In this document: in pieces, positions 8,001 through 11,000 of the stretch
Layout: every line of letters starts with the position of its first letter
Position numbering within the stretch: position 1 is the first letter of the stretch
Made by a program: the position numbers
From: Escherichia coli
Lineage (GTDB): Bacteria > Pseudomonadota > Gammaproteobacteria > Enterobacterales > Enterobacteriaceae
Length of the DNA: 64,000 nt
Reading direction: 5' to 3' (one strand)
Assembly: GCF_051903065.1 (NCBI RefSeq)
Contig: NZ_CP178438.1

Positions 8001-11000
8001 TGCACTAACGGCACCCGCACCAGTATAATCCCCACTGTTATCACTCGGGCTAATACCAGCGGCAGCATCGTTAGAGTTATCAAGCGGGGTACCGATTGCC
8101 AGGTTGCCATTACCATGAGCATCTTCATTACCATCGAAACGAATTGCGGCGGACTTAAAGGTTTCCGGGCATTGAGTCAGATCGATAGAAAAAGCCGTCG
8201 GGGCAGCCACATCATCGACGCCACTAAAGGCTGTACGGTTTACTTTGCCTAAGTCAACGACCTGATCTTTAGTTTCAGGTGTGACTTCGCAAGTACTGTC
8301 AATAATTTCACCACGGAAATGGACTGTTCCATCAGCCGCCTGTAGGTGACCTGCCATAAACACAGAAGTTAACGCTAATGCTCCTACAATCATATTTGGT
8401 TTCATAAATATAACTCCATTAATTTGATATTATTCCTGTGTATTATCCATTTATTAAATTTGGATAAACCCGATCGGTATTTGATCAGAAGCCAAATAGT
8501 ACTACCAATATACTTTGGCGCAAGTGGTTTTTATTTTATACATTTAGATAAATTAAATTGGGTGTTAAGCAAAACTAAATTTATATCGTTATGTGATTGC
8601 TTAAAAGAAGAGGGAATAATAAATGGATATAAATATTATTTTTATGATGAGGTGATTTTTTAATTATATCACACATCTCAAAGCAGACAATTTTTTCATA
8701 TTTACATAATCCACAACTATGAATTTGCGTAGAAAACAGTCTTATTTTTAGTAAACCACACATTCAAATTATATTTTTTGCCTATATTTGTGGAAAGACT
8801 ATATATTTACAGTGATAATTTATTATCACACATTGTTACATAGTTAAATAAAATTACATATTGATGATTGTTTTACAAGCGATTCTTGAATGAACAAAAC
8901 GTGCTATTCATTACAAAGTACGTCAATTATGGCAATTGTTTGTCAATGATTCGAGATATTTAATTACTACTACGGTTAAAACAAGTGTTCAACGGTGCCC
9001 CAAATAATAGCTGAAGTTAATTATATGGAATGAGGTTAGATTATTAATGCTGGTAAGTAAAAGGGCCGCCAAAAGGCAGCCCTTCTGTGGGATGACAAAA
9101 TAGTCCTAAAATAAACTACGCTACAAGCCATATTTTTTGGCTCTACTTTAAAAATAAATGACAAAATAGATCTAAAATAAATTTTAAGCTTGCCATAATC
9201 TCGCACCCAATAAGTGACAAAATAGATCTAAAATGATATCAGGACATGGTTAAACATCTGTTTTAAATCAACTTTTATTTGTTTAACTATTTAACCGACC
9301 CACAACCGAAGTTTCTCATAAACAAAATCGATAGGTAAACGCTCTTGCTCTAAACGAGTTGACCTATCCCCGGAATTAGTACCAATCCCGTGATGAGATT
9401 TTCCAGCTTATGCTGCCTGCTTTGCATACTCAACAGGCGACATGTAATTCAACGAACTGTGCGGACGAACATGATTGTAATGCTCGCGCCATAAATCTAT
9501 TTCGTATCTGGCCTCGTCCATCGTTCTAAACCAGTGTTGGTTCAGGCATTCGTTTCTGAACTTGCCATTCAAACTTTCAACAAATGCGTTTTGTGTTGGT
9601 TTACCTGGCTGAATAAAACCCAGAGTAACGCCGCTTTCTTTGCTCCAGAAGAACATCGCCTTACTTGTAAATTCAGTGCCATTGTCACAGATCACCTTAT
9701 TTGGTTTGCCGCGTTGCTCAATCAGCAAACTCAAGAATCTGGCGACTTGCCTGCCACTGATGGAAACCAAAACCAATTGGCCTACCATTTCACGCGAATA
9801 ATCATCCACCACATTTAAAACCCTAAAGCGCCTGCCATTGCTGAGTTGATCCGATACAAAGTCCATAGACCAACGTTGATTCACAGCTGTTGGCACTTCC
9901 ATAGGCTGTCGTGGCCGAGTCAGCTTTTTGCGTTTTTTCGTACGCACCTGCAAACCTTCTTCGGTATAAAGGCGATAGGTATGCTTACGGTTTTTAACCC
10001 AACCTTCGCCCCGAAGCAGACTATGCAACATCAGATAGCCATAACGCGGATATTGGGTTGCCAATGCTTTCAACCGCTGTCGTATGCTGTTATCTGCATT
10101 CGTTTTGGGCTGATACCGCAATGCCGTTCGGCTTAATCCCGCCAACTTGCAAGCCACCCGTTCACTCAGGCGAAAAGCTTCTATCAAATGCTGAGCAACA
10201 GGTTTCCTTGCCGCTGGCGTCACCACTTTTTTGACAGTACATCCTTCATTGCTTCGACTTCCAGCATCTTGTCGGCCAGCATTTTCTTAAGCTTGTTGTT
10301 CTCTGCCTCAAGCTCCTTCAATCGCTTGGCTTCGTTCACTTCTAGGCCTGCGTACTTACTGCGCCAGTTGTAGAAGGTCCCGACGGATATCGCCATCTCA
10401 CGGCATAAGTCCTCGACCTTCGAGCCTGCTTCATGCTGCTTGATGGCTTTGATGATTTGTTCTTCGGTGTAACGTTTTTTCATTTTGAGATCTCCATTGG
10501 TTCCATTTTATTGGAAATCTCATCAATGTCATGGTCTTAAATTGGGGGGATAGGTCACTCACCTGAGCATGAGTTACAGGGAGCAGAGTTTCATTTGTGG
10601 CTTAAAAACACTCCCACCTGCATAACGGCACCCGAATTTACCACCACGACCACTGGTTGATCACCACCCGTTGTGTTTTCACGGAACCACCATGTTCAGC
10701 AATCATCCAGTTACTTGATTGCCTGCTATGAGCGAAAAGCAGAGATTCAGCACCTCAACACAATCCGCATGCGAATGACCGCTTTTACCGCAAAACCGGA
10801 CATGAAGCCCGGTTTATTTAAAACGAAATTATCGGTCTATAGGGCTAATTGTCCCTGATGAATGTTGACCGATGACATGTGTATATATTTGAGTTGTCTT
10901 CAAATCCGTATGCCCTAACAGCTCTTGAACTGTACGAATGTCTGTTCCCGCTTTTAAAAGCTGCGTTGCGAAAGAGTGCCTGAATGTGTGTGCGGTAACG

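What the first reader, a model, noticed from the sequence alone, without database searches (positions are those of the whole stretch)
9055..9086. glmS terminator uncoupled from glmS by the insertion
The GC-rich hairpin plus T-run that normally ends glmS now lies 19.6 kb away at the far side of the element, and the duplicated CCTTC overlaps the base of its stem. glmS transcripts would read into the Tn7-like right end toward tnsA unless an internal terminator exists; the tccagtatgct...agcataactgga hairpin at about 28568..28598 could play that role.
Basis: inference. Interest (0 to 1): 0.3.

Follow-up and report, generated by a model that had tools for sequence, protein, structure and literature searches.

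The report
Tn7-like insertion displaces glmS terminator
A 19.6-kb Tn7-like resistance transposon has landed at its usual E. coli docking site just after glmS, moving the glmS terminator hairpin to the far side of the element, while a conserved hairpin plus U-run inside the transposon's right end probably ends glmS transcripts instead; this is the ordinary, long-known consequence of Tn7 insertion.

Summary
On the minus strand, 9086->9055 holds a GC-rich hairpin plus U-run (dG -21.9, z -4.6). It sits next to the left end of a 19,610-bp Tn7-like element (9086..28695) flanked by a 5-bp duplication, CCTTC. Joining the two flanks recreates an empty glmS-lpfA2 site that is 100% identical in three E. 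coli genomes, so this is the displaced glmS terminator. The duplication keeps the hairpin complete; in the K-12 allele it is split.

It is followed by U7 and then the tnsA ATG. Its arms match canonical Tn7 (right-end positions 96-127). Other Tn7-clade elements carry a hairpin plus T-run at the same spot with different sequence, including five compensatory pair changes. That fits a built-in terminator or insulator, but no transcript ends were measured, and one paper reports read-through into mini-Tn7.

Insertion of Tn7 into the glmS terminator was published in 1986 (Gay et al.), so the finding is already known.

One speculative addition: a sigma70-like -10 hexamer lies in the hairpin's 5' arm. 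The element's own tnsAB mRNA may therefore escape the terminator.

The parts
28720..30549 (-). glmS coding sequence (609 aa); stop codon at 28720..28722
   Evidence: TIGR01135 glmS equivalog, 898 bits, E 2e-270. Annotated as glmS in identical E. coli records.
28696..28700 (.). Right copy of the 5-bp target-site duplication (CCTTC; GAAGG on the glmS strand). It starts 19 nt after the glmS stop.
   Evidence: The sequence is single-copy in empty sites.
9086..28695 (-). Tn7-like transposon, 19,610 bp. The right end is next to glmS. It carries tnsABCDE and cargo: IS3-family IS, integron integrase, dfrA1, two serine-protease cassettes and a Tn3-family unit with blaTEM.
   Evidence: Termini TGTGGGATGRCAAAATAGT occur only at 9086 (+) and 28695 (-). 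Pfam and NCBIfam hits. Annotation of near-identical genomes.
28610..28687 (-). Four closely packed TnsB-binding-site repeats of the right end (28671-87, 28651-67, 28630-46, 28610-26)
   Evidence: Pattern GACAAAATAGATCTAAA with up to 3 mismatches gives 7 hits in the window, all in the two ends, against 0.19 expected.
28589..28616 (-). Predicted sigma70-like promoter for tnsAB. The -35 TTGTAA (28616..28611) lies inside the innermost TnsB site. After a 16-nt spacer, the -10 TATGCT (28594..28589) lies inside the 5' arm of the hairpin.
   Evidence: 8 of 12 consensus matches, with the same hexamers in canonical Tn7 at 17-nt spacing. PMC9308760 states that TnsB site 4 overlaps the predicted right-end promoter. 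The transcription start is not mapped, so this is an inference.
28570..28600 (-). Right-end hairpin UCCAGU-U-AUGC / loop / GCAUACUGGA at right-end positions 96-126. With the G at 28601 (position 95), which pairs G-U, the extended stem runs 95-126. It is the candidate substitute terminator or insulator for glmS read-through.
   Evidence: dG -18.6, z -4.9; -15.2 for the hairpin alone. The arms are identical to Tn7. There are 5 compensatory pairs in alignment A1.
28563..28569 (-). U7 run directly after the hairpin and directly before the tnsA AUG
27735..28562 (-). tnsA (275 aa)
   Evidence: PF08722 and PF08721. 56% identical to Tn7 TnsA.
20859..27751 (-). tnsB (25664..27751), tnsC (23997..25661), tnsD (22475..23992), tnsE (20859..22466)
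   Evidence: Pfam hits to TnsC, TniQ/TnsD and TnsE_C. RefSeq annotation of the identical genes.
9094..9232 (+). Three dispersed TnsB-site repeats of the left end (9094-9110, 9160-76, 9216-32)
9081..9085 (.). Left copy of the target-site duplication. It forms the base of the 5' arm of the displaced terminator.
9052..9085 (-). Displaced glmS intrinsic terminator: stem GAAGGGCUGCC/GGCGGCCCUUU, loop UUUU, tail UUUUACUU. It now abuts the transposon's left end, upstream of lpfA2 (7803..8405).
   Evidence: Its position 19 nt after the glmS stop was read in an unoccupied genome.

Best explanation
**What happened (shown).** A Tn7-like transposon used its TnsD pathway to insert at attTn7 of an E. coli chromosome that carries the glmS-lpfA2 allele. 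The insertion point is set by distance from the glmS 3' end. It fell on the first bases of the glmS intrinsic terminator.

**State of the old terminator (shown).** The duplicated 5 bp form the base of the stem, so the complete terminator survives. It now sits 19.6 kb away, outside the left end. There it can only stop transcripts leaving the element toward lpfA2.

**Fate of glmS transcripts (inferred).** glmS transcripts now run about 150 nt further, through the four TnsB sites of the right end. They then meet a conserved bulged hairpin followed by U7, which ends at the tnsA start codon. This most likely acts as an intrinsic terminator or attenuator. It would give glmS mRNA a new 3' end about 127-135 nt inside the element and shield tnsABCDE from host read-through. 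The block may be partial.
For: **Insertion anatomy**
- Termini, 3+4 TnsB repeats, 5-bp duplication and tnsABCDE are all present.
- The exact empty site is found in 3 genomes at 100% identity, and 349 genomes hold at least 80% of it in one piece.
- The hairpin lies 19 nt after the glmS stop in an unoccupied site.

**Fold statistics**
- Terminator: -21.9 kcal/mol, z -4.55.
- Right-end hairpin: -18.6 kcal/mol, z -4.9.
- No competing structure lies between the glmS stop and 28640.

**Conservation of the right-end hairpin**
- Canonical Tn7 has the same arms at positions 96-127, followed by UUUUGUU AUG, although TnsA is only 56% identical.
- A hairpin plus T-run sits directly 5' of tnsA in four sequence classes, with z -3.7 to -8.
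- Five pairs show changes on both sides, and 0 of 500 shuffles reach this.

**Literature**
- Gay et al. [quoted passage not shown]
- PMC3273789 says the insertion interrupts glmSt.
Against: - No transcript data were available here.
[quoted passage not shown] The hairpin may therefore be leaky.
- The hairpin has a bulge, an 8-10-nt loop and only 5 G-C pairs. The consensus terminator scan did not call it.
- The five compensatory changes all come from one lineage (L007).
- The hairpin is absent upstream of tnsA in more distant Tn7-like elements.
- My recollection that Gay et al. mapped termination 127 bp inside Tn7R could not be checked, because the paper is not held.
Confidence: 0.68

Rival explanations
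1. The 28570..28600 hairpin is mainly a feature of the tnsAB promoter and 5' leader, not an effective terminator. It would hold the -10 element and the weak ribosome-binding site, and control translation or mRNA stability. glmS read-through would largely continue into tnsABCDE.
For: - A -10-like TATGCT lies in the 5' arm. The only purine-rich SD-like stretch (CUGGA, 8-12 nt before the AUG) lies in the 3' arm.
- PMC9308760 places the predicted promoter at TnsB site 4, immediately upstream.
- PMC3273789 reports transcription entering mini-Tn7 through Tn7R.
- The hairpin arms are more conserved in sequence (22/22 with Tn7) than pairing alone would require.
Against: - A run of 4-7 U directly follows the stem in all four sequence classes, which a leader structure alone does not need.
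- The flanking A-run/U-run symmetry is typical of terminators.
- Class D elements have a -33 kcal/mol hairpin plus UUUUU.
Confidence: 0.22
2. The right-end palindrome works at the DNA level. It would be a binding site or structural signal for transposition, for example orientation control or a host factor, and its RNA fold would be incidental.
For: PMC10201428 describes a palindrome 97-107 bp from the right end of the Tn7-like VchCAST. Mutating one of its arms changed the integration orientation bias. The position matches the one here (95-126).
Against: - In that study it was the sequence of one arm, not the palindromic nature, that mattered.
- Here pairing is maintained by changes on both sides while the sequence diverges, and entirely different sequences form the hairpin in class D. 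That argues for selection on pairing.
- The U-run is conserved only on the tnsA-sense strand in Tn7.
Confidence: 0.08
3. Both hairpins are chance inverted repeats in AT-rich intergenic DNA and have no function.
For: The tool's consensus terminator scan reported neither. Rfam gives only sub-threshold chance hits.
Against: - 0 of 200 shuffles fold as well, for either hairpin.
- The 9055..9086 hairpin sits directly after glmS in an unoccupied genome.
- The right-end hairpin is conserved across elements with 42-57% TnsA identity.
Confidence: 0.02

Closest known systems
Tn7 insertion into the E. coli K-12 glmS transcriptional terminator (Gay, Tybulewicz & Walker 1986, Biochem J 234:111; attTn7)
   Same: - Same site, orientation (right end next to glmS) and 5-bp duplication.
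- Same consequence: glmS loses its own terminator.
- The same right-end hairpin arms lie just before tnsA.
   Different: - The element is a Tn7 relative (TnsA 56% identical, right end 80% identical) with different cargo.
- The host allele is glmS-lpfA2, not glmS-pstS.
- Here the duplication covers the base of the 5' arm, so the terminator is moved intact. In K-12 the duplication (GCGGG) lies in the loop and 3' arm, and the hairpin is split.
- The insertion is 19 nt rather than 20 nt after the stop codon.
Intrinsic (Rho-independent) terminators of E. coli
   Same: - The 9055..9086 element has a GC-rich 8-11-bp stem, a tetraloop and a U-rich tail right after a stop codon in the empty site.
- The 28570..28600 element has a stem-loop followed by U7 and preceded by an A-run.
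   Different: - The right-end hairpin has a bulged U, a long A-rich loop and moderate stability.
- It overlaps a predicted promoter and abuts a start codon, which is unusual for a simple terminator.
Protection of IS10 and IS50 from activation by outside promoters (Davis, Simons & Kleckner 1985 and Reznikoff-lab work; recalled from memory, not checked here)
   Same: An inverted repeat sits at the transposase 5' end. Its upstream arm would be present only in transcripts that start outside the element, so only foreign read-through RNA folds.
   Different: - In IS10 and IS50 the fold blocks translation. Here a U-run suggests transcription termination as well.
- The transcription start inside the loop is only predicted.
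Right-end palindrome of VchCAST/Tn6677 (PMC10201428)
   Same: A palindrome about 100 bp from the right end, between the TnsB sites and tnsA.
   Different: It was studied for its effect on integration orientation. No terminator role was proposed, and sequence relatedness was not tested here.

Membership tests
Tn7-family insertion at attTn7 (glmS) | Heteromeric transposase and target selectors tnsA-B-C-D-E in one operon reading in from the right end | tested here: met
   Pfam hits to TnsA N and C domains, TnsC (AAA_22, Tn7_TnsC_Int), TniQ+TnsD and TnsE_C. tnsB has no Pfam hit but is annotated as TnsB in the identical RefSeq gene.
Tn7-family insertion at attTn7 (glmS) | TGT...ACA termini with several TnsB-site repeats, dispersed in the left end and packed in the right end | tested here: met
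   Three repeats lie at 9094-9232 and four at 28610-28687. That is 7 hits against 0.19 expected. Termini confirmed.
Tn7-family insertion at attTn7 (glmS) | 5-bp target duplication about 20-25 bp downstream of the glmS stop, with the right end proximal to glmS, and an empty site existing elsewhere | tested here: met
   CCTTC is present on both sides, 19 nt after the stop. The reconstructed empty site is 100% identical in three genomes.
Intrinsic terminator (for 9052..9085, minus strand) | Stable GC-rich stem-loop followed at once by a U-rich tract, downstream of a gene's stop codon on the same strand | tested here: met
   dG -20.5 to -21.9, z -4.55, tail UUUUACUU. It lies directly after glmS in an unoccupied site.
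Intrinsic terminator (for 9052..9085, minus strand) | Transcript 3' ends map to the U-tract | not testable with these tools
   No RNA data are available. PMC3273789 draws 'glmSt' at the equivalent K-12 position.
Internal right-end terminator of Tn7 (for 28563..28600) | Homologous hairpin at the same distance from the right terminus, followed by a U-run, just before tnsA | tested here: met
   With the closing G-U pair the window hairpin spans positions 95-126, then U7. Tn7 is at 96-127, then UUUUGUU. All arm bases are identical.
Internal right-end terminator of Tn7 (for 28563..28600) | Pairing maintained by selection across relatives | tested here: met
   90.7% of cells are paired against 35-40% in slid controls. 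Five pairs are changed on both sides, with 0 of 500 shuffles reaching this. Unrelated sequences form the hairpin in class D. Caveat: few sequences, and a single lineage supplies the double changes.
Internal right-end terminator of Tn7 (for 28563..28600) | glmS transcripts end there in vivo | not testable with these tools
   Gay et al. 1986 is not held. PMC3273789 reports some read-through.
IS10/IS50-type shielding from outside transcription | The element's own transcript starts inside the inverted repeat and so lacks the upstream arm | tested here: inconclusive
   - The pair TTGTAA-16/17-TATGCT has its -10 in the 5' arm, which would put the start in the loop.
- By eye, similar hexamers sit in the 5' arm in L007 (TAAACT) and L008-10 (TATGTT) (sequences).
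- This is only a consensus match at 8 of 12, below the scan's threshold.
IS10/IS50-type shielding from outside transcription | The ribosome-binding site is sequestered in read-through RNA | tested here: inconclusive
   The only SD-like bases (CUGGA, -12 to -8) are paired in the 3' arm, but the SD is weak.

The most novel reading that the evidence does not exclude
The right-end hairpin may be a 'promoter inside a terminator'. The -10 hexamer of the TnsB-repressed tnsAB promoter lies in the 5' arm, so the element's own mRNA would start in the loop. That mRNA cannot fold and escapes termination. Any transcript entering from the host (glmS) carries both arms. It terminates at the U-run, and its start region is occluded.

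This would be a conserved device of the Tn7 clade for telling self transcription from host transcription. I did not find it described in the papers I could read.
Probability: 0.35. Interest if true: 0.4.

Novelty: already known. Interest (0 to 1): 0.15.

Why it matters
Mostly as housekeeping. It explains why Tn7-family insertions at attTn7 are harmless to the essential glmS gene: the element supplies a replacement stop signal and shields its transposase genes from host transcription.

It also carries a practical caution for users of mini-Tn7. The roughly 200-bp right end kept in vectors includes this hairpin and a promoter, so both read-through and internal initiation can reach the cargo.

The allele comparison adds one small point. 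In the lpfA2 and lpfA-O113 alleles the old terminator is carried intact to the left border. There it can insulate the fimbrial operon from transcripts leaving the element. In K-12 it is destroyed.

Tried and rejected
- **Consensus terminator scan.** It called neither hairpin over 8700..9500 or 28200..29000. This was rejected as a negative because its rules exclude bulges and long loops and extend stems into the U-run. RNAfold with shuffles was used instead.
- **Rfam.** Only sub-threshold chance hits (Hrs13, ctRNA_p42d, mir-318), so no known RNA family is present.
- **Original papers.** Gay et al. 1986 (PMC1146532), DeBoy & Craig 2000 (PMC94526) and Parks & Peters 2009 (PMC2614081) are not held. 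My memory of a mapped termination site 127 bp inside Tn7R therefore remains unverified. The Tn7 hairpin does end exactly at position 127.
- **Genome-contig scan with TnsA.** It gave only two loci, Arsukibacterium and Rheinheimera. This was too few for covariation, so plasmid and E. coli records were used.
- **Distant Tn7-like elements.** Those with TnsA below about 45% identity (Acidithiobacillus, Bacillus, Alteromonas, Klebsiella IncFIB, IncHI1, Pseudomonas) show no significant hairpin within 70 nt upstream of the annotated tnsA start. The feature is confined to the Tn7-proper clade, or their start codons are mis-annotated.
- **Rho-dependent termination and TnsB roadblock.** I considered both as ways of ending glmS RNA in the right end. 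Neither is testable here. By eye the 135-nt stretch is A/U-rich and C-poor, which makes a rut site unlikely (inference).

Full report
**1. What is in the sequence**

glmS lies on the minus strand at 28720..30549 (TIGR01135, 898 bits), with glmU upstream. The window matches E. coli. The glmS/tnsA junction is 100% identical to strains 23CRST027 and 23CRST031.

Between 9086 and 28695 lies a Tn7-like transposon:
- Its termini TGTGGGATGRCAAAATAGT occur only at these two places, in inverted orientation.
- Three 17-bp TnsB-site repeats are spread over the left end and four are packed in the right end. That is 7 hits against 0.19 expected.
- tnsA, tnsB, tnsC, tnsD and tnsE read inward from the right end.
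- CCTTC is present directly outside both termini, at 9081..9085 and 28696..28700.

The cargo is an IS3-family element, an uninterrupted integron integrase, dfrA1, two serine-protease cassettes and a Tn3-family unit with blaTEM.

**2. The observation**

On the minus strand, 9086->9052 reads A-GAAGGGCUGCC-UUUU-GGCGGCCCUU-UUACUUACC. It folds at -21.9 kcal/mol with z -4.55, and no shuffle in 200 folds as well. The duplicated GAAGG forms the lowest pairs of the 5' arm.

I joined 8786..9085 to 28701..29000 and searched 5,426 complete E. coli genomes. Three hold this sequence at 100% identity over all 600 nt, 344 records match at >=99% identity, and 349 genomes hold at least 80% of it in one piece. 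In one such unoccupied site, read directly (L003), the hairpin begins 19 nt after the glmS stop and precedes lpfA2.

The hairpin is therefore the glmS terminator of this allele. A precise 19,610-bp insertion has separated it from glmS.

**3. Allele comparison**

E. coli has at least three different sequences downstream of glmS, each with its own terminator hairpin at the Tn7 insertion point.

| Allele | Terminator (glmS strand) | Duplication | Result after insertion |
|---|---|---|---|
| K-12 (glmS-pstS) | GGAUGCCCUGC-GUAA-GCGGGGCAUUU | GCGGG, in the loop and 3' arm | Hairpin split; only GCGGGGCAUUUUUCUU remains at the left border |
| lpfA2 (this window) | GAAGGGCUGCC-UUUU-GGCGGCCCUUU | GAAGG, base of the 5' arm | Complete hairpin kept at the left border |
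| lpfA-O113 | GGGCUGCC-GACC-GGUGGCCC-UUUUUU | GGGCU, first five bases of the 5' arm | Complete hairpin kept at the left border |

In the window the terminator is therefore relocated, not destroyed. It now faces transcripts that leave the element through the left end, for example from the IS3-family transposase gene at 9408..10483 on the same strand. It lies upstream of lpfA2. That it works there is an inference.

**4. What now ends glmS transcripts**

No significant structure lies between the glmS stop and 28640 (z -1.1).

Its true coordinates are 28570..28600, 2 nt to the right of those given. On the glmS strand it reads AAAAAG-UCCAGU-U-AUGC-UGAUUAAAAA-GCAU-ACUGGA-UUUUUUU-AUG. It folds at -18.6 kcal/mol with z -4.9. 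The U7 run ends at the tnsA start codon (28562).

**5. Comparison with other Tn7-family right ends**

Canonical Tn7 was read from a mini-Tn7 in an MG1655 derivative and from a Shigella plasmid. It has identical arms (GUCCAGUUAUGC...GCAUACUGGAC) at right-end positions 96-127, followed by UUUUGUU-AUG. This holds although its TnsA is only 56% identical and its right end 80% identical to the window's.

Other relatives carry a hairpin plus T-run in exactly this place but with other sequences:

| Class | Loci | Hairpin and tail before the ATG |
|---|---|---|
| A (window type) | window, L005, L012, L014 | GTCCAGTTATGC...GCATACTGGA(T/C) + T run |
| B (Tn7 type) | L002, L006, L013, L022, L023 | GTCCAGTTATGC...GCATACTGGAC + TTTT(G/A)TT |
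| C | L007 | AAACCCGGTTAAAC...GTTGACCGGGTTT + TTGTT |
| D | L008, L009, L010 | AGCCTGTATCCGC...GGTGGATGCAGGCT + TTTTC, about -32 kcal/mol |

In an alignment of five distinct sequences (classes A-C):
- 90.7% of cells pair, against 35-40% when the partner is slid by 1-3 columns.
- Five pairs change on both sides.
- No shuffle in 500 reaches the observed values.

All five double changes come from one lineage, so this is supportive, not conclusive.

More distant Tn7-like elements show nothing comparable within 70 nt of the annotated tnsA start.

Rfam has no family for either hairpin.

**6. Literature**

- The title of Gay, Tybulewicz & Walker 1986 states that Tn7 inserts into the E. coli glmS transcriptional terminator (citation in PMC2918618). 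The paper itself is not held. I recall that it mapped new termination 127 bp inside the right end. I could not verify that, but the Tn7 hairpin computed here ends at position 127.
[quoted passage not shown] This warns that the hairpin may be leaky.
- PMC9308760 states that the innermost TnsB site overlaps the predicted right-end promoter. It also reports that a reporter fused at the tnsA ATG is expressed and repressed by TnsB.
- PMC10201428 notes a palindrome 97-107 bp from the right end of VchCAST.

**7. Mechanism proposed**

- Shown: the terminator was displaced by a standard attTn7 insertion.
- Inferred, about 0.65: the right-end hairpin/U7 acts as an intrinsic terminator or attenuator. It gives glmS mRNA a new 3' end and protects tnsABCDE from host read-through.
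- Speculative, about 0.35: a sigma70-like pair sits in both this element and Tn7. The -35 TTGTAA lies in the innermost TnsB site. The -10 TATGCT follows after 16-17 nt, inside the 5' arm. By eye, similar hexamers lie in the 5' arm in L007 (TAAACT) and L008-10 (TATGTT). If transcription starts in the loop, the element's own mRNA lacks the 5' arm and escapes the terminator, while host read-through RNA folds and stops. This resembles how IS10 and IS50 guard against outside promoters (from memory).

**8. Verdict**

The element itself is a known type:
- The same right end is in 7 of the 5,426 E. coli genomes.
- An identical TnsA is found in Klebsiella plasmids and a Proteus record and in marine Arsukibacterium.

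Interest is low.

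Noticed in passing
window 28696..28722; L012, L013, L014: The same element inserts 19 nt after the glmS stop in the lpfA2-type allele but 20 nt after it in the K-12 and lpfA-O113 alleles. Canonical Tn7 in the lpfA2 allele (L013) also uses the 19-nt position. The exact insertion point therefore seems to depend on the allele.
   Followed up: partly
window 27735..28562; L004, L005: TnsA of this clinical E. coli element is 100% identical to one in the marine bacterium Arsukibacterium indicum and 96% identical to one in Rheinheimera baltica. These were the only hits among 100,044 species genomes. In Rheinheimera the right end is flanked by sequence that does not look like a glmS 3' end.
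   Followed up: no
window 10829..14390: The integron next to the left end has an uninterrupted 319-aa integrase (TIGR02249, 421 bits). Its cassettes are dfrA1 plus two trypsin-like or S1 serine proteases, not the usual Tn7 dfrA1-sat2-aadA1 array. From memory, Tn7's intI2 carries a premature stop.
   Followed up: partly
window 14400..19500: A Tn3-family unit (blaTEM, resolvase, transposase) sits inside the cargo. Related E. coli chromosomes carry the element without it (PK5074, DAM, ANT), or with further IS26-bounded resistance DNA carrying sul3, qacL, aadA1 and estX (23CRST027).
   Followed up: partly
window 28570..28612, plus strand: Read outward on the plus strand, the right-end hairpin is also followed by a T-rich tail (CTTTTTCATTTT) and folds at -13.5 kcal/mol with z -4.8. 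It could act in both directions and stop antisense transcripts from running out of the element into glmS.
   Followed up: no
window 9408..10483: An IS3-family insertion sequence with a programmed frameshift lies about 320 bp inside the left end. It is transcribed toward the left end and the relocated glmS terminator.
   Followed up: no
window 7013..7627; L021 1..301: The fimbrial chaperone gene downstream of lpfA2 appears in the window only as a 204-aa ORF starting at TTG. In the closest genome (23CRST027) it is annotated as frameshifted, so the lpf2 operon may be decaying in this lineage.
   Followed up: no
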